Source of the DNA: a virus
Virus record (IMG/VR): IMGVR_UViG_3300046782_000297
Coordinates: 3,178 to 67,177 of that record
Strand: one strand, 5' to 3'
DNA: 64,000 bases
The notes under the pieces were generated by a model. The model had not been told where the DNA came from. It searched no databases and saw nothing but the letters and a program-made list of their open reading frames with translations. Positions 413 through 63,521 of the stretch are shown in pieces (within the stretch, counting starts at the first letter, position 1; each line of letters begins with the position of its first letter). A program made the translations under genes and the position numbers.

Positions 413-710
413 TCTTTTTTTCTCCTCCTGTAAAGTTTACATTCTCCCAATAATGTTCCGTAGGGATACCGTAGTGTTGCTCCATATGTAGCCGGACTAG
501 GAAATGGCCAAGGCTGGGGACTTCCTCAGGTTTGGGATAATAGGACCATACAGCCATTACTATAGTGCCTCTGGGGCAGAGGATTCTCCAGCCCCGATAG
601 CTGTCCACCCCAATCCCAAAACTCCCTATGTAGGGGATAAAGCCACAGACGTGGTATCCCAGCAGCCTAGCCGTAATCGCAGCCTGCCGGATGACCTCTG
701 ATGGTTTCAC
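351..710 (-). CDS. Hypothetical protein, TA(R/K)L(L/M)GY paralog family
   Basis: N-terminal AITARLLGYHV motif shared with 1452..1685, 2880..3185 and 57922..58185. Confidence 0.6.
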   Translation of the reverse strand: MKPSEVIRQAAITARLLGYHVCGFIPYIGSFGIGVDSYRGWRILCPRGTIVMAVWSYYPKPEEVPSLGHFLVRLHMEQHYGIPTEHYWENVNFTGGEKKNGIKTEYVHVSEIGVYQTPG

Positions 711-711
711 G

Positions 712-1467
712 CTACCGCCTCTTGTTAGCTATAACCACATCGTAGTAGACTTCCACTCCTGGCATCCATTCTCCTATCCCAGGTTCTTCCAGCCTATAAA
801 ACGCCTCCATCTGACCAGGACTCAACTCCAGCAGGCTACCCAGCTTCTCAAGGTTGGCCGCAACATGGATGATGAACTTGCCCATGTCTGTTATACAGTA
901 GTTGCGGACAGTTCGAGCGGTGCTGGACTGGGCTTTGACGGGCTTAGCTATGCTCTCAGCCCTTCTGCTGTTGGCTAGCCGCTGCTCCAACTCAGCCCTT
1001 TGCTGTGCCAGCTTCAACTTCAAGCTGTCTGATTTTGCCTTGGTCTCAGTAGCCTGCTTGGCTTCTATTTCAGCCCTAAGTTTATCTTCGGCTGCTCTCT
1101 TTTCCTCCTCAGCCGCTTCGATTCGTCTGGCCTCAGCCAACTTGTAGTCACGCATTAGGTCCTTAACGTATCCTTCAGCCGTGGCCATAGGGCCATCAAT
1201 GGCTTCAAACACTTCCTTAAATCCACCCTCCGCTTCTTTGATCTCTGCCTTGGCACGCTTCAAACTGTCACGAGTCTTGGCAGTTTTCTCTAGCCATTCT
1301 CCCCTACGCTGGCGAATAGTAGCTAAAGCCAAGTCCGCTTTGGCGTACTCAATGTCCGAGGTTATTTTAAGGTCGGCTACGAGTCTGCCGATTGGCAAGG
1401 TTAGAGCCATGCCCTCTTTGCGGGTCTGTATTAGGTCATTATCAGGTATGCTTATTTTGGTTGCCAT
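712..1467 (-). CDS. Coiled-coil phage protein of unknown function
   Basis: 251 aa with long A/E/K-rich helical segments, in operon context. Confidence 0.6.
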   Translation of the reverse strand: MATKISIPDNDLIQTRKEGMALTLPIGRLVADLKITSDIEYAKADLALATIRQRRGEWLEKTAKTRDSLKRAKAEIKEAEGGFKEVFEAIDGPMATAEGYVKDLMRDYKLAEARRIEAAEEEKRAAEDKLRAEIEAKQATETKAKSDSLKLKLAQQRAELEQRLANSRRAESIAKPVKAQSSTARTVRNYCITDMGKFIIHVAANLEKLGSLLELSPGQMEAFYRLEEPGIGEWMPGVEVYYDVVIANKRR

Positions 1468-1685
1468 GTTATTCCGTATCTCTCCCTTAGATCCTTCACT
1501 ACGTTTGGATGGGATAAGCTGGTACTATCACCATTTTTTAGGTCATCACTAGTAGTCATAGCCAGAACAGTGTCACCATCAGGAGCAAAGATTACAGACC
1601 AGCTATAACTAGGGGAGATAATGAACTTTCTAACCTCATATCCCATTAGTCTGGCCGTCTTCATTGCCCACTCCTCTAGGTCCAT
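1452..1685 (-). CDS. Hypothetical protein, TA(R/K)L(L/M)GY paralog family
   Basis: KTARLMGYEV motif; ATG directly follows the palindrome at 1686. Confidence 0.6.
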   Translation of the reverse strand: MDLEEWAMKTARLMGYEVRKFIISPSYSWSVIFAPDGDTVLAMTTSDDLKNGDSTSLSHPNVVKDLRERYGITWQPK

Positions 1686-1693
1686 TGTAAACT

Positions 1694-1990
1694 TTACACT
1701 CCCCTCCGTCTCAGCGTTACCAGTTCAGTTTGTAGCCTCTGCATTTTGCACATAAGCTCATGCTCGCGCATATCGCAGATTTTCAGGTCCTCTTGAATTC
1801 TTATAGAGATTTCTCTTTGAGTCTCTTCCTGGCTGGAGTCTCCAGTATAGATAAGTTCGGCATTGTACTCAATGCCCTCAGCCCGTCTATACTGGGCACT
1901 GCATGTATCTCTGATGCACTCAGCTAGTTCGTAGGAGGTTTCCCGGTACTCAGCCATTACAAGCTCCATAGTTCGGTCTGGCCAGATCAT
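1694..1990 (-). CDS. Hypothetical protein
   Basis: Co-oriented ORF whose TAA stop is supplied by the palindrome at 1686. Confidence 0.5.
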   Translation of the reverse strand: MIWPDRTMELVMAEYRETSYELAECIRDTCSAQYRRAEGIEYNAELIYTGDSSQEETQREISIRIQEDLKICDMREHELMCKMQRLQTELVTLRRRGV

Positions 1991-2161
1991 CGGATTTCTA
2001 CCCCCTCCTCTTCAGCCATCATAGCAGCAGCCTGTTTGGCACTCTCCATAGTTACACAGTGGATACTCCTGAAGATGTCGTAGGCGTCATGCCTCCTACT
2101 CCACATCATGTAGTTGACGTGATAAATGCCATTCATGTTAACCACAGTCACGTAGCCCTCT

Positions 2162-2620: not shown

Positions 2621-2641
2621 TGTTTTCTCCTTTTGTAAACT

Positions 2642-2911
2642 TTACACAGTCCCCAGCACTATGCCCTTATACTTCTTTCTGAATACTTCGCGCATGTGCT
2701 TTCCCTTACTGGGGGCATTCTTTAAAGCATCCCAGTCTGCCCGAGCCACGTCCAGATAGTAATAGAAGAGAGACGTGGCATTAGGGTCCTTTTTGTTCCT
2801 AAAGCTGATGGTCGCCGCTTTGGTGTCTCCATCCCAAGTCCCACCCTCAACGTTAGAGGATTCGGGAGACAGGAACGTATCAATCTGTTCCAGTTTCTTT
2901 TTCTTTGCCAT
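2642..2911 (-). CDS. KTSC domain protein
   Basis: SSNV...WD...ISF...YYYLDV...WDALKNAPSKGKHMREVFRKKY matches the KTSC pattern. Confidence 0.8.
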   Translation of the reverse strand: MAKKKKLEQIDTFLSPESSNVEGGTWDGDTKAATISFRNKKDPNATSLFYYYLDVARADWDALKNAPSKGKHMREVFRKKYKGIVLGTV

Positions 2912-3185: not shown

Positions 3186-3657
3186 CCATATCCGGCCCGC
3201 TGGTCTTGAATGCCCAGGAGGTTGAAATCACTGTACAGGCTGTTATAACATCAGGGGTTATCCCATGCTCTATCAGCTTCTGCCTGCTGATCGTGGCCTT
3301 AGTCTGCTTGTAGTAGGCGCTGCGGTTCCCGTCAGCCATGAACTTGCCCAGACCGTAAAGTTTACACAGGGGCTTAATCTCACTCACGAGGTCAGTTTTC
3401 TGTTTCTTCAGGGTCCCCTGGGTTTTGGTAATAGCAGCCACCTGCTCAATCATTCTCGTGAGCCTGCCCCGCTCATTATCAGGTACATCAAGCTCACGGA
3501 TATCAGGGGGAGGAGGTTCAGGCTCCTTCTTCTTATGCCCAGCCCCAGACCAAGGGTCCATACTGGGGGATGACTTATCCCGAGCCGCTTTAATCTGAGC
3601 TTCCAGAATTTCCCTAGCAGCCTTCTTGTCAGCTAATGCCTTTTTAAAGTCCACCAT
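3157..3657 (-). CDS. Hypothetical phage protein
   Basis: 166 aa co-oriented ORF with an internal palindrome copy at 3354 read as CKLY. Confidence 0.55.
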   Translation of the reverse strand: MVDFKKALADKKAAREILEAQIKAARDKSSPSMDPWSGAGHKKKEPEPPPPDIRELDVPDNERGRLTRMIEQVAAITKTQGTLKKQKTDLVSEIKPLCKLYGLGKFMADGNRSAYYKQTKATISRQKLIEHGITPDVITACTVISTSWAFKTSGPDMGDGNGDEED

Positions 3658-3666: not shown

Positions 3667-4200
3667 TTAACAGGAGCAGGAAAAGAAGCTGCCCTTTTGA
3701 TTCTCGTCTACCTCTGTCCCAGTTATCCGTTCATAGTGATCCCAGAATTTATCCGGGACCGATTCACCCTCAAACCTGCCTCCCTCATTCCAGAATCCTC
3801 TGCCAGTCACGTAGTCACCGGCTTTTTCCATAACTTCTTCCATAGTGCTGCCAATAGCCGATGCATATACTTTCATCCAGGCGACAGAGGCAGCTAAGGG
3901 GGTAGGTTTTCCCTCATTCGGCACCTTAGGATGACTCCACATATGCCTAATAGTTGTTACAGAGCGGGGATAGAGGAACAGCCAGAACTTTTCATCCTCC
4001 CGTAAAGGACGGGCTAGGTAAGGGTCCACAATACCTATCTTATCTGAAATCTCGACAGATGCTCTGCCGTCTGATGTCAGTCCCACATGCTGCCCCGGTA
4101 TTAATGGGTGAGCAGCCCGAAGGGGTAGGACAGCCACATGGACAGCATCCCGAAATTGGTCTCCTTCCAACACTGTTCCTAGAGTCTCCTGAGCAGTCAT
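3667..4200 (-). CDS. Conserved-type phage hypothetical protein
   Basis: RDAVHVAV...GIVDPYL...FWLFLYP..VT.IRH.WSHP pattern recalled from phage hypothetical proteins; ends in SCSC. Confidence 0.55.
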   Translation of the reverse strand: MTAQETLGTVLEGDQFRDAVHVAVLPLRAAHPLIPGQHVGLTSDGRASVEISDKIGIVDPYLARPLREDEKFWLFLYPRSVTTIRHMWSHPKVPNEGKPTPLAASVAWMKVYASAIGSTMEEVMEKAGDYVTGRGFWNEGGRFEGESVPDKFWDHYERITGTEVDENQKGSFFSCSC

Positions 4201-4397
4201 TTTTTAACCTCGAAATTAACTGTTTTCTCAATTCCCAGGTACTTCAGGATGGTTGGCCCTGGTGCTCTCTTATTAAGGTAGATGTCAGACAGATACTGGC
4301 GGCTGACTCTGAGGCGTCTGGCGAAAGCGGCTTGATTTAATCCTAGCCGGTCTTGCTCCTCTTTAAGTACTTGAATCAATTGATCTTTACTCATCAT
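4197..4397 (-). CDS. XRE/Cro-like HTH DNA-binding protein
   Basis: LNQAAFARRLRVSRQYLSDIYLNKRAPG is a Cro/CI-type HTH. Likely start is the ATG at 4397. Confidence 0.8.
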   Translation of the reverse strand: MMSKDQLIQVLKEEQDRLGLNQAAFARRLRVSRQYLSDIYLNKRAPGPTILKYLGIEKTVNFEVKK

Positions 4398-4404
4398 GTC
4401 AACC

Positions 4405-4433
4405 ATTGTAGCTTGTCAGCGGACGAATTGCAA
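4405..4433 (-). promoter_or_regulatory. Sigma70-type promoter for the HTH gene and the left accessory operon
   Basis: TTGCAA (4433-4428), 17 bp spacer, TACAAT (4410-4405). AT-rich upstream, with a palindrome copy at 4454. Confidence 0.65.
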
Positions 4434-4703
4434 GCATTATTTTTATTGACCCGTGTAAACTTTACATGGTAGCTTGAATATATACTCTTAGATCGGAGGT
4501 GATAACCTTGTTTGCAGGGTGTGGGAAAACCGTGTGTCCTGTTTGTGACTCCGCAGTCCCCGTGGCTCCTGGAGTCTGCGTCATTTGCGGTTGCATCTTT
4601 CTCAACTCTACCATTGATCGGGACGTAGTTGAAATCAAGGAGGCCGCATAAATCAATGTCAATTCCTAGACGGAGGATACTTATGGGGCAAGGTTGCTTG
4701 AGG

Positions 4704-6161
4704 TTACTTAGGCATCTTGCCCCATACTTGTGCTTTAGCCGTACTGGCCTTCAACGGCACCCTCAGCTTAACAACATTCTCAAAGACGTTAGTAATGTGA
4801 CTGCCAATCTCGTCCGCCCACCTCTCTTGAACACAGCATAGTAGCTCGTCGTGTACATCCAACACCGGCTGGCAAATGTCATTGACCACGCCCATTTCCA
4901 GCAACTCATCATATACCTGAGTCTCACCCAATTTCACAATACCCCGAGCCGTACCCTGGATAGGCAAGTTACCAGCCTCCCTCAAAGCCGCGCTAACCAC
5001 CCAGGGCAACACACTCCTAACAGCCGTAACGTGCAGGTTGCGCCCAAAATCGTCCCAGATCATTGCCGTTTGTCTGGCTGTTTGGTGATCCTTTCGGCGC
5101 ATATCCATTAAGCCACTATATTTTATGTAGAAAGCATTAATCAGGTCCTGGCAGTTGTCCTCCTGCCACAATCCAACAAATTTGCCACAGTCATGCTCGA
5201 TACTGGGCTTGTCACAGGTCTTACAAACTACAGGCATCTGCTCAGCCAGCCCCGGCCCGCTCACCTCATATAGACTAGCCAGTGTACAGGTTTTTGCCGG
5301 GAACCTGTGCTTCTTCTTATGCACTGTAGGGTAATGCCAGCCATGCCCCTTGTGCTCACTGTCCCTGCACTCCCGGTCATCCCCATCAATAGACTTAAAT
5401 CCCTGGCACTCCCACCTCTCATCATCCAACCTGAATGCTGCCGTGGCGAAGTCAGAATAGATGTCCTCATCATTCTCGTATACAGCTACTAATCCCTCAT
5501 CCCCACTTCTATGAGCGGCTACTCTAGGTTCAACTTGGCTGAAGTCCACGGACAGATACACCCACCCGTCTGGGCAAATGAACCCTTCACATAGCTCCCG
5601 GCCCCGCTCAGTCCTATTAGGCATGGCGAGGAGGTTAGGCTCATCGCAGTTATTTCTGCCGGATGGTACTCTAGTAGTCTTGAGGTTGGGAAATATCCGC
5701 CAGTTGGCATGTCCAACTCGTCTTGCAAGTTTATATAAAGGTACTGCATACGTTCCCCTTAGCTTGTCGTACTCCCGATAGTCCTGGACTAACCCCACGG
5801 CGGGATGCTCATGCTGCAATGTCTTAAGTACTTCGTCATCAACAGCTTCCCGCTTCCCAGTGGGAGTCATCTTAGTCTTAAGCTGCTTGATCTTGAGTTT
5901 GCTAAACAACAGGTCCGCTACCTGATCGGCGGACCCCACGTTAATGTAGAATCCCGTAACCTCCCGGATCTTTTCAGTGATGGCATCCATGTCCACCATC
6001 AACACCTTCTCCATCCTCTTGAAATGGTCTGGGTCAACCTGCATCCCAGTCCTCATCATATAGTGTATTAATGAGAGATAGGGTAGGTCTAGGCGCTCTA
6101 TATTGTCCAGGTCCTTATGGGCAAGACCAAACTTGACGCCGTTGTAAAGAGTTTGGATCAC
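4704..6161 (-). CDS. DNA polymerase family A, polymerase domain only
   Basis: Motif A DFSQVEPR, motif B RFPAKTCTLASLY, motif C VHDEL, plus TRVPSGR..DEPNL and NLPIQGTA. Confidence 0.92.
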   Translation of the reverse strand: MIQTLYNGVKFGLAHKDLDNIERLDLPYLSLIHYMMRTGMQVDPDHFKRMEKVLMVDMDAITEKIREVTGFYINVGSADQVADLLFSKLKIKQLKTKMTPTGKREAVDDEVLKTLQHEHPAVGLVQDYREYDKLRGTYAVPLYKLARRVGHANWRIFPNLKTTRVPSGRNNCDEPNLLAMPNRTERGRELCEGFICPDGWVYLSVDFSQVEPRVAAHRSGDEGLVAVYENDEDIYSDFATAAFRLDDERWECQGFKSIDGDDRECRDSEHKGHGWHYPTVHKKKHRFPAKTCTLASLYEVSGPGLAEQMPVVCKTCDKPSIEHDCGKFVGLWQEDNCQDLINAFYIKYSGLMDMRRKDHQTARQTAMIWDDFGRNLHVTAVRSVLPWVVSAALREAGNLPIQGTARGIVKLGETQVYDELLEMGVVNDICQPVLDVHDELLCCVQERWADEIGSHITNVFENVVKLRVPLKASTAKAQVWGKMPK

Positions 6162-6532
6162 ACCTGTACAGTATACAGTGCTAGGGGATGGGTTACTGAG
6201 TTGGTGCAGTAACTACTATAGTAGCTGCTGTGCCTAAACTTCACCCGCAACTTGCAGGGTAGTAGCTCTAAAGTGACTAGAGGGGATTTACAATTTGAAC
6301 AGAGGACCGTTGGGAATTGCATGAACATCCTACCTTTCCCATTGGCGCACCTTCTTACTTTGTTGTTATATCCCAGTTTTGTGGACTCCCCGGCCCTGCT
6401 ACAGGCAATCCCATTGTCGTGTATAATATACTTGAAAGAACCATGTAGGTACAACTTCATCTTGAGCACATTTAACTGGATGTGGCATTCTGGACAGTAG
6501 ATGGGTCTGCTGAGACTTAAGTAGTTCCTCAT
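6158..6532 (-). CDS. Cys/His-rich protein with two repeated CxxC..H..C units
   Basis: PIYCPEC...H..C and FPTVLCSNC...LRVKFRH...C; paralogous to the next two genes. Confidence 0.6.
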   Translation of the reverse strand: MRNYLSLSRPIYCPECHIQLNVLKMKLYLHGSFKYIIHDNGIACSRAGESTKLGYNNKVRRCANGKGRMFMQFPTVLCSNCKSPLVTLELLPCKLRVKFRHSSYYSSYCTNSVTHPLALYTVQV

Positions 6533-6933
6533 GAGTCACGTTCAACAAATACCGTGTACTGGGCCACTGGGCGGATAAACTCTGAGAAGCATCCTTCATA
6601 GCGAGTGGTCATATGGGGGGGCTTATGTGTAAACTTTACACGTAGGTTATCCGGTGGAAACTCCAAGTAATGATAGATTCCCAGGCACGCCCCACATTGG
6701 GTTGGGAATATCTGGATGAATGCCACGCTGTTATTCGTGGGCTTATCCGACAGAGGAATGGTGGAATGGGAGAACACATGACTGGCAGTCCTTGAGCATT
6801 TACCATTACCTGGATGGGTAATAGCAACCTTCCCACTGAAGTGGGATGTAGCCACGAACATAGTTATAAAGCACTGAGGGCATCTAATGGGAGTGTGCAG
6901 GTCCAGTACTCCCATCCCAGCAGCATTTATCAT
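6529..6933 (-). CDS. Cys/His-rich protein, paralog of 6158..6532
   Basis: PIRCPQC...THPGNGKCSR and FPTQCGAC...LRVKFTH...FIRPVAQY. Confidence 0.6.
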   Translation of the reverse strand: MINAAGMGVLDLHTPIRCPQCFITMFVATSHFSGKVAITHPGNGKCSRTASHVFSHSTIPLSDKPTNNSVAFIQIFPTQCGACLGIYHYLEFPPDNLRVKFTHKPPHMTTRYEGCFSEFIRPVAQYTVFVERDS

Positions 6934-7406
6934 ATGAACTCAACAAACTGAGCTATAGGCCGGAAGAATTCAGTCCTCGTTCGGCTGCAAGTATCCATCT
7001 TTATATGCCTGAATCTCACCCGCATCCGGTCAGCCATGAATACAATCTCCAATGTACTACCACATTCTGGGCACATATTAGGGATAGCCTTCATGACTGC
7101 TACCTTCCCATGTTCATCCATAGGGGGTTGTAGGTAGGTTTCAGCTAGGTCCTTCTCCTTCTCCACCAGCTTTTGATAATATTCCTCTAGCTCCCTACGA
7201 TACTTTTCCAGTTCAGCCGCTCGATTGGCAATCACCCGGATAGGGGTCTGGTTATCAGCGGTCTGGTCAGGGATAGGGGAGAATAGGCTAGTAGACTTCG
7301 GAAGTCTCTCTGCTTCCATCCTACCTATTTCCCTATCTATTGCCTGTTTTTCCCTATCTATTGCCTGTTCCTTTATTTCTTTAAGTCTGTCTGACACGTA
7401 TGACAT
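6930..7406 (-). CDS. Coiled-coil protein with one C-terminal CxxC..H..C unit
   Basis: CPECGS...MRVRFRH...CSR..EFFRPIAQF. Confidence 0.6.
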   Translation of the reverse strand: MSYVSDRLKEIKEQAIDREKQAIDREIGRMEAERLPKSTSLFSPIPDQTADNQTPIRVIANRAAELEKYRRELEEYYQKLVEKEKDLAETYLQPPMDEHGKVAVMKAIPNMCPECGSTLEIVFMADRMRVRFRHIKMDTCSRTRTEFFRPIAQFVEFI

Positions 7407-7426
7407 AATCTCCCCCTATGTAAACT

Positions 7427-8800
7427 TTACATTTCCCAATGTTCTTGCAACTTACCAAGTTTAGCATTTTCCTTCATCTTTTGCAAAATTGGCCATAAAC
7501 GTATTGTAGCATCAGCGTCACGGCAGGCATAGTGCAGTACCTCCTCCTCTGGCGCATGGGCTATGTCCATACCTGGGTAAGGCCCCACCTGCTGTTCAAT
7601 TAGTTCCTGCCATTCCACCCAGTTCTCTTCAAACATCTTGAATACATCTTTCTCAGGATTCTTGCTGTAGTCAGTGAAAAACCTTTTCAGCTTAGTAGAC
7701 ATGGACTGGGGCTTGTATACCTTCCACTTCCCAGTTTTGTCATCCACTACTAGCTGTTCTGGGGGCTTTGGCCACTCTGACATCTGAGCCATTTCGAAGT
7801 AGTTCAACACCATCTGGGTAGAGTATGGCCTAACCAGATCCTCAAAGGACTGCATGGCCATACCCAGATAGCGGTAAGCCAAAGCCTTAAGGCCCTGGGG
7901 GACATTGCCCAGGTGGAAACAGGTCACCATAGTATCTCTCACCAGCTTATGGGGAAAGTTTAGACCCATATTTTCAGTCACCAACCAGTCATACAGCCAG
8001 TTGTGGAAGAGAATGGTGCCCTCCCACTCGTCCAGTTTCTCCTGTAAGGCTACTAATAGGTCTGGCCTAGTCGCTCTTATCAACCTGCCGGTGCCAGGAT
8101 ACTGAGAGTAGGTCAGACAATAGGGGCCATACTTCCGGCTGGTCTCAGTGTCGCAAGCCATTGATAATGTTGGGTCAATCTCCCGGATCTCCTTGGCATT
8201 GGTCACCTCAGAATAGTCCACGTCTGGGTGTTGGTCGATAGGCAGCTTGAGCTTGCCCTTAATGTATCTGCCCAGCCTCACCCAGTCCGTACGAATCTGA
8301 AGCATCTTCTTAGGCTCATGGATACCTCCAGCCGGGTGCCACATAGGGAAGGCAATAATGCCCAACCTAGTCTTGACCGGCATCCCATGCTGGGTGTCCA
8401 GGTCTATGTCAGGGTCCACAGCCTTGCAGGCGAAGTTACCCATAGGCACTATGAGCTTTGGCAGACCCAGACTTGTACGGGTTACAGCCCATCGGCCATA
8501 TAGGTGGTTGGCAGCACAGGACTGCAACAGGCTCCGGTCTGCTTCTTTATGCCAATCCAGTTTGCCCTTTGGCCGGTCTGGCATGCAGCTTATGGCGTTG
8601 TCAAACCTGACAAGTTCACGCTTGAGAGGGACTAGAGGCAGGTAATGCTCATTAACTTCCCGGCCTGTCTTGCCGATAAAGGGCCTGCCATGCCTATTCT
8701 CCTCCCAGCCTGGGGCCTCACCTATGAATTCGATCTCACTGGGGGGACCGTCGGGGGCAACACAGGTACTGTTATTTGGGCAAAGTTGGCAGCGGTTCAT
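7427..8800 (-). CDS. Family-4 uracil-DNA glycosylase-like domain fused to a PolA-type 3'-5' exonuclease
   Basis: CxxC...C, GEAPG..E...GRPFIGKTG and WHPA (UDG family 4); ExoI DTETS, ExoII HNWLYD, ExoIII YACRDAD. Confidence 0.85.
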   Translation of the reverse strand: MNRCQLCPNNSTCVAPDGPPSEIEFIGEAPGWEENRHGRPFIGKTGREVNEHYLPLVPLKRELVRFDNAISCMPDRPKGKLDWHKEADRSLLQSCAANHLYGRWAVTRTSLGLPKLIVPMGNFACKAVDPDIDLDTQHGMPVKTRLGIIAFPMWHPAGGIHEPKKMLQIRTDWVRLGRYIKGKLKLPIDQHPDVDYSEVTNAKEIREIDPTLSMACDTETSRKYGPYCLTYSQYPGTGRLIRATRPDLLVALQEKLDEWEGTILFHNWLYDWLVTENMGLNFPHKLVRDTMVTCFHLGNVPQGLKALAYRYLGMAMQSFEDLVRPYSTQMVLNYFEMAQMSEWPKPPEQLVVDDKTGKWKVYKPQSMSTKLKRFFTDYSKNPEKDVFKMFEENWVEWQELIEQQVGPYPGMDIAHAPEEEVLHYACRDADATIRLWPILQKMKENAKLGKLQEHWEM

Positions 8801-9099
8801 TCACCAATCCAATAGACCCTTTTCCGATCCTTCTCTTTAACCCGTTCTTCTATTTTCTTAAAGTCTAGTCCCATATGGTGTACTAGAAATCTAATGCAAG
8901 AGGTTACGTCGGCTACTTCCTCTTCCAACCATTGCTTGTTCGGTTTACCCGTGTGGGGGTCATACCCAGCAATACCCTGTATCAAGCATCTAGCAGACAC
9001 AGCAGATAATTCTCCTAACTCTTCCAAGAGTTTCCCAAAAACTTTAATTTGTTTAGGATCTTCGGTAGGGGTCCAGCAGGGTGGGAATTCAGTACCCAT
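8797..9099 (-). CDS. MazG-like nucleotide pyrophosphohydrolase
   Basis: KLLEELGEL...LEEEVADV (ExxE...ExxD). Confidence 0.75.
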   Translation of the reverse strand: MGTEFPPCWTPTEDPKQIKVFGKLLEELGELSAVSARCLIQGIAGYDPHTGKPNKQWLEEEVADVTSCIRFLVHHMGLDFKKIEERVKEKDRKRVYWIGE

Positions 9100-9838: not shown

Positions 9839-10044
9839 AGGTTTTCTACTAGCTTATCCCTGAGTGTGCTGAGGTAAGTAAACTGGTCAATGTTCTCCAT
9901 TAGGGCCTGATCCAAGAGCCATAAAGGCTCATGATCCCAGAGGTTGCCACCATGCTCAGTCACCCCAGCCTCATACTTGCGGCTCAGGGCCTCTACAAAC
10001 CTCTTACCTAGAGATTCTACATGGGCCTTTTGCTGGGGTGTCAT
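9835..10044 (-). CDS. Small all-alpha protein, possibly MazG/dNTP-diphosphohydrolase-like
   Basis: KYEAGVTEHG...WLLDQALMENIDQFTYL. Confidence 0.4.
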   Translation of the reverse strand: MTPQQKAHVESLGKRFVEALSRKYEAGVTEHGGNLWDHEPLWLLDQALMENIDQFTYLSTLRDKLVENL

Positions 10045-11182: not shown

Positions 11183-11189
11183 GTAAAGT

Positions 11190-22211: not shown

Positions 22212-22212
22212 A

Positions 22213-53925: not shown

Positions 53926-54160
53926 GTAAACTTTACACTTCCATCTCTTTCAAGGCTGCGGACTTCCAACAGTCGCATGGTCTCCCGCTATACCAAATCC
54001 AGCAGGTCTCTTCATTTGAATAGATTCCTGATCTCTTGGATGTCTTGGGCGAAGCAGAAAATGCCAGCGATGATAACGGTTACGGCAATAAACCCTACCC
54101 CTGCCCCGTCAGCGCCGGACTTCTTCAGTAGGGCAAGCGCAATCAGCCAGATCGCAATTC

Positions 54161-57921: not shown

Positions 57922-58185
57922 CTACATAGGAGGGTCAAGTGTAAAGTTTACAGTACTATTAGGCTGCTCAGCCAAATTCCAGCCCAACTTATGCCTCTCA
58001 TTTATTATGCAGGCAGTCAAATAGGAGCCTAAAGCGTCAAAACCGGGTTCAGTGCTGGGCATATGCCAGCAAGCCAAACACCGACCCTCAGTATCAAACA
58101 AATAGGTATACTTGGGACTATTGCGAAAATCCCGTGTAGTGTAGCCCAGCAACCTTGCCGTAGCTTTAATTACCTGTGGATTCAT
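57922..58185 (-). CDS. Hypothetical protein, TA(R/K)L(L/M)GY paralog family
   Basis: QVIKATARLLGYTT; first gene of the minus-strand arm. Confidence 0.6.
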   Translation of the reverse strand: MNPQVIKATARLLGYTTRDFRNSPKYTYLFDTEGRCLACWHMPSTEPGFDALGSYLTACIINERHKLGWNLAEQPNSTVNFTLDPPM

Positions 58186-59875
58186 GTGGTCCCTACGAGG
58201 GTAGGCCGTCCCCCGGCCTTTAGAGCGGCTGGCCTATCGGCTATCACCCGCTCTACGGCCTCATTATATCATACCTGTCAAGCTTTTCCTCACTTTATTT
58301 TACCCCCCACGATGTGTATGATTCCGCGCCTGCGGCGCTCCATCATAAACATCTCCCCCCGCTACCCCCCACACCCCCAGTGTAAAGTTTACACATGTGG
58401 CGAGGGAGGGAGGCCGTAGGGGGTTCAGATGGAGGCGCGTAGCGCCGGAATCTTAACACCCGTAGGCTTATAGTGTTTTTTGCTCAAAACCAAACCCCCC
58501 AGCTATAGGTTAACTGGGGGGCTTGATCGGAACTATTGTCAACGTCAGCCTAGACAGAACACCTGTTACATAGTTGACAATAAGCGGTCATGAATTGTGC
58601 CACCAGCCAATTGCTGATGGATGTCTAAGAGCCACAGCGTAATGGGCTATTTAAGCTCGCCCATAAGAAACATCCTAGACGGTGTAAACTTTACACTGAG
58701 TCCTCTGGGCCTGTCTATGATTTTTATTTTTTTTTGGTGCCGTGCATGCCCCAAAACATGCCCCCGTCGTACCCGCCCCCCACTGTGGCGACAACTCGAC
58801 TAAGCCTATTGCCAACCTAATGAGCGGCCTACAACATTGCTGGGTGAGCTAACAGGTGCTGGGCGCTGGGTGGCCGGGGGCATGAGGCTGGGGGGTTATG
58901 TGTTACAGGCTGTAGCGTGTGACAGGGTGTAACAGGCTGGCAGACTTGTACAGGCAGCCTATAGGGGCTGTCGCGTATCAGTGACACTGACGTGTATAAT
59001 GTACAGCAGCGTTTCGGGCATGGTTCCACCCCCCCTCCACCGCTCTGGCAAGTGGCAGGGACTAGCATGTGAGGGGTAAGCTGTTGGTATAATTGGGAGT
59101 TTACAGGCAGATGAAAAGCATTCTCAATTAGCTATGCGAATCGGCAAAATGTACATGCTCCAACCCCAATAACGCATGCAGGGGTCCAAAGTCATTTAAT
59201 GCCCCTGGCTGCCCCGTAGTGAGCATCGGCTGAAAACTGGGGGGGTAGTAAGGGGCAAGGGCTGAACGTGCAGCCTGAGCGAAATTCCATTTCTCATATT
59301 ACCTGCCGAATTCATAATAGTCTAGTTACTCAATAGAGTTAGTAGGGCAGTCATTTGGGGGGCTGCTGTTGGCTGCTATATAGTAAGGTCGGGGGGCTGT
59401 TGGAGGCTGACTGGCTAGGCTGGCAGGGCTGGCCAATAGCCTATTAGGGGGCTATAGCAGCTATGCCCCTGTTAGGGTTAGGTTTAGACCTAGTAAGATA
59501 TTACTAGATGTGGGGACGTGACAAAAAATGTCATTTTTGCCTGTTGTAGATATTGGCTTTAGGGGCCGGACAGGGCAAAAGTCAGTATTGTGACACTGTA
59601 AACTTTACACTCTGTCAGCATGACAGCAGAAAATTTTACAATTGCAATAAAGCCATATGCTACAATGGTATACGGGTTACATGGCTGGGGGATAGCGTAG
59701 GGGTAGGGGTAGAGGGTGGTATTGTGTAGCAGGAGGCTATCAGATGTTTATTGTGTCTAGTGATACAGGGTTGACGTTCCTTCATATGACATTGGGGCTG
59801 CTGGCTGCCGATGTTTGCCTACTGTTTGCTGTCCTTCTGTCCATGTGCAACAGGCCGAAAAAAACTCAACTATAT
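58186..59875. other. Large non-coding strand-switch region (divergent control region, origin or terminus candidate)
   Basis: No credible ORFs; hairpins, G/C runs, TGACA/TGTCA inverted repeats and three palindrome copies. Confidence 0.55.
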
Positions 59876-61007: not shown

Positions 61008-61907
61008 ATGACAGAGACAATGATCCAGGAACAAACGGCAGTAGCCAGCCCCATACATACAAGGGCTATGCTGGTATCTTGCAGGCTGTCTACATGGACA
61101 GCCAGAAAGTACGATAGAAAGGTTTCGGCAGAAGTGGCAGCAAACCATGGGGCAGCCATGGACGCGGGCAGATACAATAAAATGCTAATTCCAGCAGATA
61201 GCCTGTCCTACAAGGCGATTATGCAGCATGTAGGGGCAGTCAGGACCCAGCACTATGCCAATACCTTGGCATGGTCTGACGAAGGTTGGAGAATGCTGCC
61301 CACAGCGAACTACATGCATTACGCTCAATTCACAAGGCAGGCTAAGGCTATATTTAGCACTCTGTTGGATGACTTCATGGCGGAGTATCCCGCATTGCGA
61401 GACGGGGCAAAACTACGCCTTAATGGCCTATACCGCGAAGAGGACTACCCGGCTATTTCGCAAATACGGAGCAAGTTTGGCTTTTACCTCGATTTTAGCC
61501 CTGTCCCTGCCCAAGGCGATTTCAGACTTGACTTGCCCCAGGAGGACATACGGCGCATTGAGGCTGAGACCCAGGGCAAGGTTAAAGGGGCTACAGCAGA
61601 AGCCATGCGAGACGCATGGGGCAGGCTGTACGATTGCGTCAAACACGTTCAAGAAAGGCTGGCTACCCCTGACGCGATTTTCAGAGACAGCCTGATAGAC
61701 AATGCCCGTAATCTTTGTGACATGCTGACAAGGTTGAATGTGGAAGGGGACCCTAACCTTGAAGCAATGCGGGCAGAAGTGGCGGACAGTATCGCCAGTC
61801 AGGACCCAGACAGTCTACGGGAAGACGATACCATGAGGTCTGACGTGGCTACAGTAGCAGAAGATATTTTTAACAGGATGGCTGCCTTCTACAGCCCCCA
61901 GGAGTAA
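61008..61907 (+). CDS. Helical protein associated with the AAA/VWA pair (DUF3150-like)
   Basis: WTARKYD...K.L...YP....IRSKF pattern; initiation region identical to that of the AAA gene. Confidence 0.5.
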   Translation: MTETMIQEQTAVASPIHTRAMLVSCRLSTWTARKYDRKVSAEVAANHGAAMDAGRYNKMLIPADSLSYKAIMQHVGAVRTQHYANTLAWSDEGWRMLPTANYMHYAQFTRQAKAIFSTLLDDFMAEYPALRDGAKLRLNGLYREEDYPAISQIRSKFGFYLDFSPVPAQGDFRLDLPQEDIRRIEAETQGKVKGATAEAMRDAWGRLYDCVKHVQERLATPDAIFRDSLIDNARNLCDMLTRLNVEGDPNLEAMRAEVADSIASQDPDSLREDDTMRSDVATVAEDIFNRMAAFYSPQE

Positions 61908-61912
61908 CCCGA

Positions 61913-63052
61913 ATGAACAGCAAACTTCAATCTGCAAAAGTCAGCGTAGTACTAGATCAGCCCTTTTTCGGGGTCCTAATTTGTAACCTGAAATTTCAGG
62001 AGGACCCAACCTGTCAGACAGCATGGACAGACGGCACAAGGTTGGGCTATAACCCCGCCTATATCGACAGCCTGACGCATGCTGAAATCGTAGGGCTGTT
62101 GTGCCATGAGGTTCTACATTGCGCTGGAGGTCACCCCTTTCGAAGAGACGGTAGAGACCCCAAAAAATGGAACTATGCCTGTGACTATGCCATTAATCCA
62201 ATCGTGGGGGAGTCTGGCATGGTGTTGCCAAGTGGCAGCTTAGAATGCCCTTCTGACATGCTGGGGAAGTCTGCCGAGTATATCTATGACAGGCTGCCCG
62301 ACATGCCCCAGGATGGTCAGGGGGACGGTACAGGAGAAGGTCAGGGGCAAGGGGCATCGGCCCCTGGGGAAGTCAGGGATAGCCCTGGGGGGCGGTCTGA
62401 CGATAAAGACGGGGCAGATAGCGAGACTCCCACAAAGTCAGATGGGGAGTGGCAAGAAATCACTAGACAGGCTGCTGTACAGGCTAAAGCCCAAGGGCAG
62501 TGTCCGGCCAGCATGGACAGGTTTGCTACAGCAGCCGCCCAAAGCAAAATTGACTGGAAGTCTGCCTTACGTAAGTTTGTTGAGCAGGCTGCTAAGGCGG
62601 ACTACTCATGGTCTCATCCTAGCAGACGTTATGCTTCCATGGGGCTGTACTTGCCAGGGCTGCATTCCGAATCCTGCCCTGGTATCGCTATAGGAGTTGA
62701 TACGTCAGGCAGCATGGACGATATCGCATTAGCCAAAGCCAAGGCAGAAGTAATAGCAGTCATGGACGAGGTACAGCCTGACTTTGTTGAGATTATGTAC
62801 GCCGATGCGAGAGTGGCCAGAGTGGACAGGTTTGAACGTGGGGAAGAAATTGTTTTCCAGCCTGCTGGGGGCGGGGGTACAGATTTTCGGCCCGTGTTTG
62901 AGCACGTAGACGGTATGGAAGAAAAGCCCGCTTGCATTATCTATATCACTGACTTGTATGGGAGTTTCCCTGAGGGATCAGATATCCCTACACTTTGGGT
63001 TACTGACACCGATCAGTCCGCCCCATTCGGGGATACTCTGAAAATCGAATAG
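61913..63052 (+). CDS. HExxH metallopeptidase-like plus VWA domain protein (DUF2201-type)
   Basis: TAWTDG, HEVLH, WNYACDYAIN, MIDAS DTSGS, GGGGTDF and ITDLYG. Confidence 0.88.
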   Translation: MNSKLQSAKVSVVLDQPFFGVLICNLKFQEDPTCQTAWTDGTRLGYNPAYIDSLTHAEIVGLLCHEVLHCAGGHPFRRDGRDPKKWNYACDYAINPIVGESGMVLPSGSLECPSDMLGKSAEYIYDRLPDMPQDGQGDGTGEGQGQGASAPGEVRDSPGGRSDDKDGADSETPTKSDGEWQEITRQAAVQAKAQGQCPASMDRFATAAAQSKIDWKSALRKFVEQAAKADYSWSHPSRRYASMGLYLPGLHSESCPGIAIGVDTSGSMDDIALAKAKAEVIAVMDEVQPDFVEIMYADARVARVDRFERGEEIVFQPAGGGGTDFRPVFEHVDGMEEKPACIIYITDLYGSFPEGSDIPTLWVTDTDQSAPFGDTLKIE

Positions 63053-63059
63053 TAACAGG

Positions 63060-63088
63060 GCTGGGGGGCTATTACAGCCCCCCTAGTT
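63060..63088 (+). terminator. Hairpin after the VWA gene, probable terminator
   Basis: GGGGGGCT-ATTAC-AGCCCCCC stem with only a weak U-tract. Confidence 0.45.
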
Positions 63089-63521
63089 AGGAGTGACATG
63101 ATACGTAGGTCCATTAGGCCCCCGTAAGGCCTAGCCCCCTGCTAGGTGGCAAGTAAAGCCACCTAGGGGCTAATGCATGCTGCTGTACTCACTCAGCAGC
63201 CCTGATAGAACCTAGGACCCTGGAGGTTACCTGTCAGGTATTGATACGCCAGGGCATAAATGTAAAGTTTACAGTCTGACGATTCCAAGGGGGCTGGGTT
63301 ATGGGTAGGTTTCGGGTAGGGCTGCTGGACATAGTGACTACTAGGTTCGACAGGGCAGCAGCAGCAGACAGCATCGTAAGGCGTATGGGAACCCAGCCCC
63401 CCCAGATACTTGAAAAGATACTGGACAATTTAGAGACGGAGTACAACAGGGCAGCATTCGAGAAAGCCATAGGGCTGCTGCCGAAAAGCAAAAAAGACCA
63501 TATGTTTAAAGGGGGGAAGAA

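What the first reader, a model, noticed from the sequence alone, without database searches (positions are those of the whole stretch)
429..63273. Genome-wide lattice of a 13-bp palindrome (YGTAAA-S-TTTACR, 39 copies): candidate undescribed phage DNA-marking or organising system
Seen in the sequence: 39 copies with an invariant 11-bp core GTAAA(C/G)TTTAC, where about 0.03 are expected in 64 kb at uniform base composition. The central base is C in 22 copies and G in 17, so the site is non-polar. 26 copies are intergenic or at gene junctions. 13 sit inside genes (helicase, ERCC4, TerL, nozzle, adaptor) and are read in different frames as VNFT/VKFT or CKVY/CKLY/RKLY/GKVY, so selection acts on the DNA and not on the peptide. 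Established knowledge: dispersed short palindromes bound by dimeric proteins are known for RK2 KorB (TTTAGCSGCTAAA, also 13 bp with a central S), E. coli MatP/matS, SlmA and Noc. Mycobacteriophage L5 stoperators are 13 bp and junction-associated, but asymmetric and polar. I do not recognise this motif as any of these. Inference: one dimeric protein coats the whole genome. Possible purposes are global silencing by roadblock, compaction or segregation, self-marking against a defence system, DNA-entry ratcheting, or titration of a host regulator.
Basis: partly seen in the sequence, partly recalled or inferred. Interest (0 to 1): 0.93.

Follow-up and report, generated by a model that had tools for sequence, protein, structure and literature searches.

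The report
Phage-wide docking sites for orphan ParB
An uncultured soil phage repeats one exact 13-letter DNA palindrome about every 1,600 letters, and comparison with related phages indicates these are most likely docking sites for the phage's own partner-less ParB-type DNA clamp protein, a plasmid- and chromosome-style system not yet described for such phages.

Summary
Confirmed: 39 exact GTAAASTTTAC in the window and 41 in the 67.2-kb phage record, against 0.03 expected. Only 2 copies carry one mismatch.

- **Placement:** about two thirds lie in gene junctions; 12-14 lie inside genes.
- **Relatives:** 12 further uncultured phage contigs carry the same frame, TGTAnn-N-nnTACA. Most use TGTAATSATTACA, one uses TGTATAWTATACA, and two or three add hybrid half-sites.
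- **Selection:** sites are spaced more evenly than chance. In-gene sites keep the same codon position in orthologous genes while following each genome's own motif (ERCC4: VIIT versus VNFT).
- **What travels with the lattice:** a replication module plus an orphan ParB-family protein (CTPase-fold domain plus HTH), encoded 0.8-2.1 kb before the window. The virion module does not travel with it. All 13 ParB-bearing contigs have the lattice. Three ParB-less structural relatives have none. No ParA or integrase was found.

Best reading (about 0.6): these are dispersed parS/OB-like loading sites for this ParB. In this phage they also overlap its two strongest promoters.

The closest known systems are KorB/OB, Noc/NBS and the unexplained Cluster O mycobacteriophage palindromes. 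Earlier unchecked notes of this scan report similar lattices on other phage DNA. Binding is untested.

The parts
430..440 (.). site; junction, AGGAGG and the ATG of gene 188-412 follow 17 nt downstream
1687..1697 (.). site; its TAA is the stop of gene 1694-1990; 1 nt before the ATG of gene 1452-1685
2635..2645 (.). site; its TAA is the stop of gene 2642-2911; 14 nt before the start of gene 2162-2620
3355..3365 (.). site inside core gene 3157-3657 (read CKLYG); G009 has its own motif at the same alignment column (CILY)
4455..4465 (.). site; its TAA is the stop of ORF 4462-4614; 48 nt upstream of the Xre-type gene 4197-4406
6629..6639 (.). site inside ORF 6529-6933 (VKFTH)
7420..7430 (.). site; its TAA is the stop of the UDG-exonuclease gene 7427-8800
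9399..9409 (.). site inside the ERCC4 gene 9089-9838 (GTA AAC TTT ACA = VNFT). Six other genomes have GTA ATC ATT ACA (VIIT) within 2 alignment columns.
11183..11193 (.). site; its TAA is the stop of gene 11190-11672; it abuts the ATG of gene 10301-11182
12334..12344 (.). site; intergenic, 21 nt before the ATG of gene 11818-12312
13607..13617 (.). site; 3 nt after the stop of the helicase gene 13621-15192
14870..14880 (.). site inside the helicase gene (VNFTC), in a one-codon insertion relative to 9 of the 11 orthologues
15657..15667 (.). site at about +3..+15 of the near-consensus promoter 15706-15678
15678..15706 (-). sigma-70-type promoter match TTGACA-17-TATACT (11 of 12)
16841..16851 (.). 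site inside gene 16415-17275 (CKVYA)
17530..17540 (.). site; its TAA is the stop of gene 17537-19654
19658..19668 (.). site filling the junction between genes 19670-21892 and 17537-19654
21893..21903 (.). site; its TAA is the stop of gene 21900-22211; it abuts the ATG of gene 19670-21892
23012..23022 (.). site; junction, 17 nt before the start of gene 22809-22994
28247..28257 (.). site inside gene 27394-28371 (VNFTS)
28482..28492 (.). site; intergenic
30414..30424 (.). site inside the 1240-aa gene 29724-33446 (GKVYT)
33465..33475 (.). site in the last 30 nt of gene 33446-34798, 18 nt before the ATG of gene 29724-33446
39072..39082 (.). site at the junction 39088; 6 nt inside the called start of gene 36959-39088
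40683..40693 (.). site abutting the ATG of gene 40488-40682
41789..41799 (.). site 3 nt inside the called TTG start of gene 41111-41803
42734..42744 (.). site; junction after gene 42754-43896 (64-65% identical in the ParB-less structural relatives G001-G003; called capsid protein only from recall and the first-stage notes)
43911..43921 (.). site; its TAA is the stop of gene 43918-44754; 14 nt before the start of gene 42754-43896
45086..45096 (.). site; its TAA is the stop of gene 45093-45251
45846..45856 (.). site 13 nt before the start of gene 45563-45832
48051..48061 (.). site; its TAA is the stop of gene 48058-48522; 13 nt before the portal ATG. Relative L154 has TGTAATCATTACA at this junction.
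48541..48551 (.). site; junction between the terminase large-subunit gene and gene 48058-48522
50677..50687 (.). site inside the terminase large-subunit gene 48558-50831 (VKFTR)
51980..51990 (.). site abutting the ATG of gene 51728-51979
53926..53936 (.). site abutting the ATG of the 186-aa HTH_3 gene 53365-53925
57941..57951 (.). site abutting the -35 of promoter match 57938-57910 (TTGACC-17-TATAGT, 10 of 12)
58382..58392 (.). site; non-coding control region
58684..58694 (.). site; non-coding control region
59598..59608 (.). site; 135 nt before the first + strand gene (59744)
63262..63272 (.). site; 28 nt before + strand gene 63301-63525
4197..4406 (-). 69-aa Xre-type HTH protein. It is a possible accessory regulator and is not conserved across the lattice genomes by BLAST.
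4704..15192 (-). replication-recombination module that, together with parB, is the only gene set shared by all lattice genomes. It holds the two halves of polymerase A, ERCC4, three unknown core genes and a helicase. Core gene 3157-3657 lies just outside this range.

Best explanation
**What it is.** The 13-bp palindromes are dispersed parS/OB/NBS-type docking sites for a phage-encoded, partner-less ParB-family protein (430 aa, protein id P0121). Its gene lies on the + strand at G000:1077-2369, which is 2,100 to 808 bases before the first base of the window.

**How it works, step by step.**
- **Step 1 (inferred from co-occurrence and family knowledge).** A ParB dimer reads each palindrome with its two helix-turn-helix domains.
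- **Step 2 (inferred only by analogy with ParB, Noc and KorB).** The N-terminal CTPase-fold domains close the dimer into a clamp that slides off the site. About 40 evenly spaced loading sites would then keep the whole 67-kb genome coated despite roadblocks.
- **Step 3 (site positions shown, repression inferred).** Where a site overlaps a strong host-type promoter it acts as an operator. This holds for the parB promoter and for the promoter at window 15706-15678 ahead of the replication genes. ParB would thus autoregulate and time early genes.

**What is shown.**
- The lattice is under strong selection on the DNA.
- It is conserved in kind across a family of phages.
- Its inner letters switch together genome-wide.
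- It is inherited with parB and the replication module, not with the virion module.

This is the weakest step.
- Global transcription timing or silencing, KorB-like: 0.35.
- Compaction or condensate formation of replicating phage DNA: 0.3.
- Protection or self-marking: 0.15.
- Other: 0.2.
For: **(1) The protein is a ParB-family member.**
- phmmer against PDB sequences hits Spo0J 6sdk (5e-7) and HpSpo0J-parS 4umk (3e-6). The alignments run through the ENxxRExLSP box and the HTH.
- A 17-sequence profile hits Spo0J 1e-13, Noc 1e-12, Caulobacter ParB 1e-10 and KorB 8e-5.
- PHROG 4715 'ParB-like partition protein' scores 9e-22.
- G65/R68 (GxxR) and E104-N105-R108 are invariant, and S112 nearly so, in 17 homologues.

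**(2) Co-occurrence.**
- All 13 contigs found to encode this ParB carry the lattice: G000, G006-G015, G020 and L329.
- Seven were reached by protein scans and not by motif: G006-G010 and L329, which were first found that way, and G020, which was re-found by the protein scan.
- All 8 near-complete lattice genomes have it.
- The three 93-100% complete relatives that share the virion module (gene 42754-43896 64-65% identical, portal 43-44%) lack ParB. They hold 1-3 GTA-N5-TAC words against 23-79 in the lattice genomes.

**(3) Nothing else fits as well.** Exactly 9 protein families are shared by the 8 near-complete lattice genomes, and ParB is the only one with a recognisable sequence-specific DNA-binding domain.

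**(4) Selection acts on the sites.**
- The coefficient of variation (CV) of the gaps between sites is 0.55-0.74 in 11 genomes against about 0.95 for random placement. In 8 of 11 genomes at most 5% of random sets reach it.
- In-gene sites sit at the same column of orthologous genes. In ERCC4 this holds for 7 of 12 genomes. G000 has GTA AAC TTT ACA where six others have GTA ATC ATT ACA. G009 and G012 have a 1-mismatch copy of their own motif there.
- Some sites sit in in-frame micro-insertions.

**(5) Specificity hint.** His at position 4 of the recognition helix occurs only in G000 and G020. These are the only 2 of 13 genomes that use GTAAA half-sites. G020 mixes GTAAA and GTAAT halves.

**(6) Promoters.** Both sigma-70 matches of at least 11 of 12 in the whole record carry a site at about +3..+15, where 0.1 is expected.

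**(7) Orphan status.** No ParA (PF13614 or PF01656) and no tyrosine integrase was found in up to 8 genomes; the controls ring in 14 of 14.

**(8) Established knowledge.** KorB loads at OB sites and slides, read in passages of PMC11790492. Noc binds dispersed palindromes (recalled).
Against: - **No binding test was possible.** The link rests on co-occurrence within one related set of replication modules. Eight other proteins co-occur equally well, and four of them have unknown function.
- **Covariation is not clean.** Genomes with the same TGTAATSATTACA motif have F, M, L or H at helix position 4 and M or I at position 7. The two alternative motif types have one genome each.
- **Weak domain score.** Pfam HTH_ParB scores below its cut-off for P0121 (21.0 against 22.6 bits).
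- **Motif departures.** The GERRxRA box is reduced to GxxR, and the Q of the PNPxQPR box is not evident. CTP binding and clamp closure are therefore open.
- **Most sites lack a promoter.** Over 12 genomes only 6 of 27 near-consensus promoters have a nearby site, with 2.0 expected.
- **A closer relative may lack the sites.** L131 (2 kb), whose portal is 75% identical, has no site at the two junctions where G000 has one.
- **Location of the gene.** parB lies outside the window, in a record estimated to be 78% complete.
Confidence: 0.6

Rival explanations
1. Another phage-encoded dimeric DNA-binding protein reads the sites. Candidates are a small Xre-type HTH or ribbon-helix-helix-like protein, or one of the unknown core proteins such as the product of 3157-3657. 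It would act as a stoperator-like roadblock or global repressor, and ParB would do something else.
For: - A small Xre-type HTH gene sits next to the helicase gene in 9 of 12 lattice genomes.
- G000 has a 69-aa Xre protein (4197-4406) with a site 48 nt upstream. It also has a 186-aa HTH_3 protein (53365-53925) whose ATG abuts a site.
- Small HTH dimers can read compact palindromes (recalled: controller C-proteins).
- Core family 3 is universal, and its gene often lies within a few kb of parB.
Against: - The Xre family is not detected in G000 or G014 by BLAST.
- The G000 HTH and RHH-like proteins have no homologue in G006-G010.
- Recognition helices of the Xre family also differ between genomes with the same motif.
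- The family 3 model (pLDDT 77) gave only weak HU/IHF-like rows (E 0.5-3, TM about 0.3) and coiled-coil rows.
Confidence: 0.15
2. The palindromes are action sites of the conserved replication-recombination module. They could be nicking, priming, origin or recombination-initiation sites used by the ERCC4 nuclease, the helicase or the unknown core proteins. On this view they are not protein-coating sites.
For: The lattice is inherited with the replication module and not with the virion module. Even spacing would also suit multiple initiation or repair entry points. Site-specific nicks are known in some phages (recalled: T5, and Pseudomonas phage tf).
Against: - No sequence-specific nuclease or primase domain was recognised among the core proteins. 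ERCC4-type enzymes are structure-specific (family knowledge).
- A perfect two-fold symmetric site with a C:G centre in either orientation fits a dimeric binder.
- The contig data showed no pile-up of molecule ends, but contigs cannot show ends. This is therefore no evidence either way.
Confidence: 0.1
3. A host protein reads the sites, for example a global regulator, a nucleoid protein, or the host's own ParB/Noc-type protein. The phage would hijack or titrate it.
For: The host is unknown, so this could not be tested. Motif types could in principle track hosts.
Against: The motif type changes between phages that share the same replication module. It also changes between G000 and L154, which share the virion module. 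The lattice is absent from structural relatives that lack parB. The motif does not resemble the canonical chromosomal parS (recalled).
Confidence: 0.07
4. The sites are targets of sequence-specific DNA modification, with ParB as activator or targeting subunit. Phage thymine dioxygenases that need a ParB-like activator are a known case.
For: PMC13229309 (abstract read) describes phage ParB homologues that activate 5-methylpyrimidine dioxygenases, which have sequence preferences. The sites are T-rich.
Against: - Those ParBs lack an obvious DNA-binding domain (same abstract). This one has an HTH.
- No Tet_JBP match was found in G000, but the control genomes did not ring either, so that search is uninformative.
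- No methyltransferase or dioxygenase is among the 9 universal families.
Confidence: 0.04
5. The motif works at the RNA level as translational punctuation, for example a stop-restart signal, a processing site or a translational operator. The argument is that it supplies stop and start codons and sits next to Shine-Dalgarno sequences.
For: - At 10 of 41 sites the motif supplies the upstream TAA.
- At 5 of 41 it supplies the A of the ATG.
- At 19 of 41 a gene start follows within 30 nt.
Against: - Sites occur at a convergent junction (G000:2917).
- They occur in non-coding control regions and deep inside genes in two frames.
- They occur ahead of genes on both strands with no bias of the centre letter.
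- The G009 motif (TGTATAWTATACA) holds no TAA, and 0 of its 27 sites supply a stop.
- Tight packing alone explains the overlaps with stops and starts.
Confidence: 0.03

Closest known systems
KorB and its OB operators on IncP-1 plasmid RK2 (PMC11790492, abstract and passages read; PMC13768133 and PMC13584720, search listing only)
   Same: - A ParB-family protein with an HTH.
- One palindrome with a C/G centre, dispersed over a mobile replicon of about 60 kb.
- Some sites lie next to or on promoters and others far from any.
- The regulator gene has a site at its own promoter.
- A small HTH partner (KorA) exists there, and small Xre proteins exist here.
   Different: - About 40 sites at 0.4-0.8 per kb, against 12 (number recalled), evenly spaced, with a third inside genes.
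- No IncC/ParA partner.
- The replicon is apparently a lytic phage: no integrase, and terminal repeats in G009 and G013.
- By sequence the protein is nearer to chromosomal ParB/Noc (1e-13, 1e-12) than to KorB (8e-5).
- It has a long Ala/Lys/Glu-rich coiled-coil region and an invariant PGGRKG loop before the recognition helix.
Noc and its NBS sites on the Bacillus subtilis chromosome (recalled; Noc structures hit)
   Same: An orphan ParB paralogue without ParA. It reads some tens of dispersed palindromes and spreads from them.
   Different: Noc acts on a chromosome in cell-division control and needs a membrane-targeting N-terminal helix; that feature was not examined here. Site density here is far higher, and the replicon is a virus.
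17-bp palindromes of Cluster O mycobacteriophages (Corndog and relatives; PMC4351075, passages read)
   Same: - More than 30 copies per genome (34 in the roughly 70-kb Corndog genome).
- Invariant arms and a variable centre, with no orientation.
- Mostly between genes or near gene starts, and mostly not at promoters.
- The phages are not obviously temperate and have no parA.
- They encode a ParB-like protein, gp90. I find gp90 has ParB_N (2.7e-6) and aligns to this family's profile through the start of the HTH (hhalign 95.9%, E 5.5e-9).
   Different: - Different sequence (TGTTCGGNNNCCGAACA), with 7-bp arms and a 3-bp centre.
- Siphoviruses of actinobacteria with no shared genes detected: tblastn of P0121 against 50,697 phage records found nothing at 1e-5.
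- The authors left the function open and did not link the repeat to gp90.
Stoperators of mycobacteriophage L5 and other Cluster A phages (recalled, and as described in PMC4351075)
   Same: About 13-bp sites, tens per genome, in short intergenic gaps.
   Different: Stoperators are asymmetric, oriented with transcription, and read by the immunity repressor of a temperate phage. Here the sites are two-fold symmetric, show no orientation bias, and no integrase was found.
Plasmid-prophage partition systems (P1 ParB/parS, and the dispersed SopB sites of N15; recalled)
   Same: A phage-borne ParB-family protein reading palindromic sites. N15 has several dispersed sites.
   Different: Those systems have a ParA/SopA partner and one to four sites, and they serve plasmid inheritance in lysogens. 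Here there is no ParA, there are about 40 sites, and nothing points to lysogeny.

Membership tests
ParB-CTPase superfamily (ParB/Noc/KorB), for protein P0121 | N-terminal ParB/Srx-fold domain with conserved nucleotide-binding boxes | tested here: met
   PDB sequence hits Spo0J, Noc, ParB and KorB. PHROG 4715 scores 9e-22. GxxR and ENxxRExLSP are conserved in 17 homologues. GERRxRA is reduced to GxxR.
ParB-CTPase superfamily (ParB/Noc/KorB), for protein P0121 | helix-turn-helix DNA-binding domain after the N-terminal domain | tested here: met
   Alignments to 6sdk and 4umk run through the HTH (SNSHINNSLAML.. against SRPHIANHLRLL..). Pfam HTH_ParB scores 3.7e-4, just under its cut-off.
ParB-CTPase superfamily (ParB/Noc/KorB), for protein P0121 | CTP binding, site-stimulated clamp closure and sliding | not testable with these tools
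ParB-CTPase superfamily (ParB/Noc/KorB), for protein P0121 | specific binding to a palindromic site on its own replicon | tested here: inconclusive
   Only indirect evidence. 13 of 13 ParB-bearing contigs carry the lattice, and 3 of 3 ParB-less relatives lack it. His at helix position 4 goes with GTAAA half-sites in 2 of 2 genomes.
ParABS partition system | ParA-type ATPase partner encoded with ParB | tested here: not met
   PF13614 absent in G000. PF01656 absent in 8 of 8 genomes. Controls ring in 14 of 14.
KorB-OB global regulon | palindromic operators dispersed over the replicon, some at promoters, including that of the regulator's own gene | tested here: met
   41 sites. 2 of 2 near-consensus promoters in G000, including the parB promoter, carry a site at about +3..+15.
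KorB-OB global regulon | clamp-locking small partner (KorA/TrbA type) bound beside promoters | not tested
   Small Xre HTH genes are present in 9 of 12 lattice genomes, and one is present in G000. No interaction or second operator motif was examined.
Noc-NBS nucleoid occlusion | N-terminal amphipathic membrane-targeting helix | not tested
   The N-terminus was not analysed for amphipathicity.
Cluster A stoperators | asymmetric site oriented with transcription | tested here: not met
   Perfect dyad. The centre is C in 22 and G in 17 on one strand, with no bias at gene starts.
Cluster A stoperators | read by the immunity repressor of a temperate phage | tested here: not met
   No PF00589 integrase in 8 of 8 genomes, with controls 14 of 14. 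Serine integrases were not searched.
Promoter for a phage RNA polymerase or sigma factor | asymmetric conserved element at a fixed distance upstream of gene starts only | tested here: not met
   The site is palindromic. 12-14 of 41 lie inside genes, and one lies at a convergent junction. No RNA polymerase was seen among the proteins scanned, but not all genes were scanned.

The most novel reading that the evidence does not exclude
An orphan ParB plus an evenly spaced lattice of loading sites is a general, so far unrecognised way in which lytic phages coat and mark their whole genome. It would amount to a virus-encoded 'chromatin' or membrane-less DNA compartment.

The same principle would explain the decade-old puzzle of the Cluster O mycobacteriophage palindromes (reader: gp90). 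It would also explain the other phage lattices noted earlier in this scan.

The coat would distinguish phage DNA from host DNA for replication, packaging, or protection from nucleases.
Probability: 0.25. Interest if true: 0.9.

Novelty: new variant of a known kind. Interest (0 to 1): 0.75.

Why it matters
ParB-family CTP switches are known from chromosome and plasmid segregation (ParB), division control (Noc) and plasmid gene silencing (KorB). Surveys note many orphan ParBs in phages whose function is unknown (PMC12704722, passages read).

This case offers a concrete, testable function for one such family: a genome-wide set of loading sites in apparently lytic phages.

It also comes with a natural experiment in specificity change:
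- three motif types and hybrid intermediates;
- sites that are conserved in position inside orthologous genes, while the encoded peptide changes to keep the site.

Finally, it suggests an explanation for the unexplained Cluster O mycobacteriophage palindromes. Those phages are cultured and genetically tractable.

Tried and rejected
**Closer relatives.**
- A megablast of window 20000-32000 against GenBank phages found nothing.
- A tblastn of ParB found nothing. A tblastn of the UDG-exonuclease found one 25% hit. There is therefore no cultured relative.
- The closest relatives by portal (63-75% identity, P0001-P0014) and by ParB (P0123-P0179) lie on Logan/ENA contigs of 44-67 kb.
- The genome-contig scan gave one irrelevant 31% hit.
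- IMG/VR scans with the portal alignment and with single ParB peptides found nothing.

**Unrelated matches.**
- The motif scan of IMG/VR with GTGTAAASTTTACAC gave only single or clustered matches in unrelated phages. L027, L076, L039 and L058 have operator-like clusters beside primase genes, with no protein in common.
- G024 (3 sites within 140 bp) and G025 (1 site) are unrelated proviruses.

**Unknown core proteins.**
- Profiles of four unknown core families gave no PDB sequence hit.
- The model of family 3 (pLDDT 77) gave only weak HU/IHF-like and coiled-coil rows.

**Promoters.** My looser promoter scan is confounded. The motif itself resembles -35 and -10 hexamers, which produces peaks at +21 and +26. 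I rely only on matches of at least 11 of 12.

**Other blanks.**
- The Tet_JBP search is uninformative, because the controls did not ring.
- No RNA holder was listed among the sequencing runs.
- Of the differences between the window and contigs of four runs, only 40 of 222 were shown (places 142-2501). None falls in a site, and this has too little power to count.
- The 14-fold 11-mers in G003 are an 18-bp coding tandem repeat, not a lattice.

**Not used.** Complex prediction and the second structure job were not used, because I make no claim that needs them. Supplementary files of the papers were not opened. Supplements of PMC12704722 and PMC4351075 may list phage ParB groups or site tables that bear on novelty.

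Full report
**Observation.** The window holds 39 exact copies of GTAAASTTTAC. In 100 dinucleotide-preserving shuffles the mean was 0.03 and the largest count 1.
- The window is bases 3178-67177 of a 67,177-base IMG/VR virus record (G000, linear, estimated 78% complete). The whole record holds 41 copies.
- The motif is all-or-none. There are 41 perfect copies, 2 with one mismatch and 15 with two. Shuffles give about 0.8 and 9.3.
- The flanks extend the dyad weakly to AGTGTAAASTTTACACT.
- The centre is always C or G, 22 to 17 on the + strand of the window. For a two-fold symmetric reader this means a C:G pair in either orientation.

**Placement.** I called genes with a codon-usage score of my own, so the calls are approximate. 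Nearly all genes from 1 to about 59,400 lie on the - strand.
- 29 of 41 sites lie in junctions or non-coding DNA, although about 91% of the record is coding. 12 of 41 lie deep in genes.
- 14 of 41 have the whole 11-mer inside a called CDS, read in two frames as VNFT/VKFT or CKLY-type peptides.
- Synonymous-codon shuffles keep 0.92 in-CDS copies on average, with a maximum of 4 in 300.
- The motif's TAA ends the upstream gene at 10 of 41 sites. Its last A starts an ATG at 5 of 41. I read this as a consequence of squeezing a 13-bp site into very short gaps. One site sits at a convergent junction (G000:2917). Sites also precede genes on either strand with no bias of the centre letter.

**Relatives.**
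- Structural relatives in IMG/VR (portal 44-50% identical) have high G+C and no repeated palindrome.
- A 1-kb metagenome contig (L154, portal N-terminus 62% identical) carries TGTAATGATTACA and TGTAATCATTACA at two gene junctions. One of these is the junction before the portal gene, where G000 has its own motif. This is a mirrored change next to the centre.
- A 2-kb contig with a 75% identical portal (L131) has no palindrome at those junctions.

Pfam and PHROG scans covered 76 of the 96 ORFs in my first gene call (ten not listed in it were scanned as well).
- In the window they showed two HTH_3 proteins (4197-4406 and 53365-53925), a zinc-ribbon protein and replication genes.
- Just before the window they showed a 430-aa protein, P0121 (G000:1077-2369), with a weak HTH_ParB match.
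- P0121 is a ParB-family protein. The single sequence hits PDB Spo0J 6sdk (5e-7) and 4umk (3e-6). PHROG 4715 scores 9e-22. The family profile hits Spo0J 1e-13, Noc 1e-12, Caulobacter ParB 1e-10 and KorB 8e-5.
- Homologues at 40-62% identity sit on contigs of the same lengths as three carrying the portal relatives (61,738, 63,349 and 67,465 bases).
- The alignment shows conserved GxxR and ENxxRExLSP boxes, an invariant GGRKG loop, the recognition helix, a long Ala/Lys/Glu-rich stretch and a C-terminal domain.

**Co-occurrence.**
- An IMG/VR scan with the ParB alignment returned five contigs, G006-G010. All five carry an iterated 13-bp palindrome. The counts are 25, 19, 19 and 44 copies of GTAATnATTAC, and 27 copies of GTATAwTATAC in G009 (49 kb, with terminal repeats).
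- A motif scan then found more lattice contigs. Among the 15 records tested, ParB was found in G011, G012, G013, G014, G015 and G020. It was not found in seven fragments of 26-54% completeness, nor in two unrelated proviruses.
- A third scan added L329, which has ParB and 5 sites in 11 kb.
- In total, 13 of 13 ParB-bearing contigs have the lattice and 8 of 8 near-complete lattice genomes have ParB.
- The three 93-100% complete relatives that share the virion module lack both.

**Which genes travel with the lattice.**
- Gene-by-gene comparison shows that G000 shares only ParB and a replication-recombination module with the lattice genomes G006-G009. G010 adds only weak virion similarity (21-30% identity). 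G000 shares only virion and a few other genes with the ParB-less relatives.
- Clustering gives exactly nine families present in all eight near-complete lattice genomes. These are ParB, the two polymerase A halves, ERCC4, the helicase and four unknowns.
- No ParA-type ATPase and no tyrosine integrase was found.

**Selection on the lattice.**
- Gaps between sites are more even than chance in all 11 genomes tested. The coefficient of variation (CV) is 0.55-0.74 against about 0.95. In 8 of 11 genomes at most 5% of random sets reach it.
- In-gene sites are conserved in position across proteins that are only 35-55% identical.
- In ERCC4, seven genomes carry a site within two alignment columns. G000 has GTA AAC TTT ACA (VNFT) where six others have GTA ATC ATT ACA (VIIT). 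G009 and G012 have one-mismatch copies of their own motif there.
- In core gene 3157-3657, G000 (TGT AAA CTT TAC) and G009 (TGT ATA TTA TAC) share a column.
- In the UDG-exonuclease gene, the site of five genomes lies in a small in-frame insertion (four codons relative to G000 and G009).
- The G000 helicase site lies in a one-codon insertion.
- The peptide therefore changes to keep the DNA site, and the inner letters switch together across a genome.

**Intermediates and specificity.**
- G020 uses 12 GTAAAsATTAC, 4 GTAATsATTAC and 1 GTAAAcTTTAC.
- G012 mixes GTAAC and GTAAT halves. G014 is more degenerate.
- His at position 4 of the ParB recognition helix occurs only in G000 and G020, the only genomes with GTAAA half-sites. 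Asn at position 7 is unique to G000. G009 has Tyr and Ile at these positions.
- This is suggestive, not proof. Genomes with the same motif differ at these positions, and the alternative types have one genome each.

**Promoters.**
- Both sigma-70 matches of at least 11 of 12 in G000 have a site at about +3..+15. These are the parB promoter and the promoter at window 15706-15678.
- A 10-of-12 match at 57938-57910 has a site abutting its -35.
- In eight of the eleven other genomes with upstream sequence, a site lies 71-271 nt upstream of parB; in six of them it lies beside a promoter-like element.
- Over 12 genomes, 6 of 27 near-consensus promoters have a site nearby, with 2.0 expected.
- Most sites have no promoter.

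**Literature.**
- KorB of RK2 loads at OB sites as a CTP-dependent clamp. It slides and is locked by KorA at promoters. OB lies 4-10 bp, or 45 to more than 1,000 bp, upstream of the promoters (PMC11790492, passages read).
- Orphan ParB proteins are common on mobile elements and in phages, with functions largely unknown (PMC12704722, passages read).
- Some phage ParBs without a DNA-binding domain activate thymine dioxygenases (PMC13229309, abstract read).
[quoted passage not shown] The authors did not connect the two (PMC4351075, passages read).
- I find that this protein, Corndog gp90, has ParB_N (2.7e-6). It aligns with the present family through the start of the HTH (hhalign 95.9%, E 5.5e-9).
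- Searches for a paper linking a phage ParB to a genome-wide palindrome lattice found none. These cover only the held open-access library.

**Earlier notes of this scan.** These are unchecked, and I read them only after reaching my own reading. They report similar palindrome lattices read as orphan-ParB sites in at least eight other phage genomes. No look-alike of P0121 was among them.

**Verdict.**
- The best explanation is a lattice of docking sites for the phage's own orphan ParB (confidence about 0.6), with an operator role at a few promoters.
- Clamp sliding and the purpose of genome-wide coverage are inferred by analogy only.
- It is a new variant of a known kind (KorB/OB, Noc/NBS, Cluster O repeats), not a categorically new system.

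Noticed in passing
window 4704-6161 and 7427-8800: The family A DNA polymerase is split into two separate genes: a polymerase half and a UDG-plus-exonuclease half. Three small ORFs lie between them. Both halves are conserved as separate genes in all 12 lattice genomes.
   Followed up: partly
window 15453-15706: The near-consensus promoter (15706-15678) is followed about 200 nt downstream by a terminator-like hairpin (15477-15453, 9 pairs plus a T run). No convincing ORF lies between them. This may be a small RNA or an attenuated leader ahead of the RHH-like gene 15194-15433 and the helicase gene.
   Followed up: no
window 10041-10299: A 65-kb contig of run X2, about 1% different from the window, lacks these 257 bases. 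That removes the 86-aa gene 10041-10301. This looks like a natural deletion or insertion variant.
   Followed up: no
G011:21146-22393: The parB homologue of this 92%-complete lattice genome (33 sites) has one in-frame TAG. The cause could be an error, a pseudogene or recoding; it was not examined.
   Followed up: no
G020 and G012 (whole records): These genomes use hybrid, asymmetric sites. G020 has GTAAAsATTAC and G012 has GTAACsATTAC, each beside the symmetric GTAATsATTAC. They look like evolutionary intermediates of a specificity switch.
   Followed up: partly
window 59893-63052 (+ strand): A MoxR-type AAA ATPase (AAA_5) and a DUF2201 metallopeptidase/VWA protein form a + strand block, divergent from the rest of the genome. 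A phage lysozyme gene follows parB at G000:2453-2920.
   Followed up: no
L027:4920-5010, L076:4892-4972, L039:3435-3700, L058: Unrelated phages, some of low G+C, have clusters of GTGTAAA..TTTACAC-type half-sites. In L027 and L076 these lie beside a primase/helicase gene with a C-terminal HTH. They are probably origins or operators of another family.
   Followed up: partly
G008, about 60-130 nt upstream of parB (start 4967): The sequence between the promoter-like element and parB ends like the 3' part of a tRNA (GGTTCGAATCC...CCA). It was not checked with ARAGORN.
   Followed up: no
G003:19690-20260 (- strand coordinates of my script): An 18-bp tandem repeat inside a gene explains the 14-fold 11-mers in this ParB-less relative. 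It is not a lattice.
   Followed up: yes
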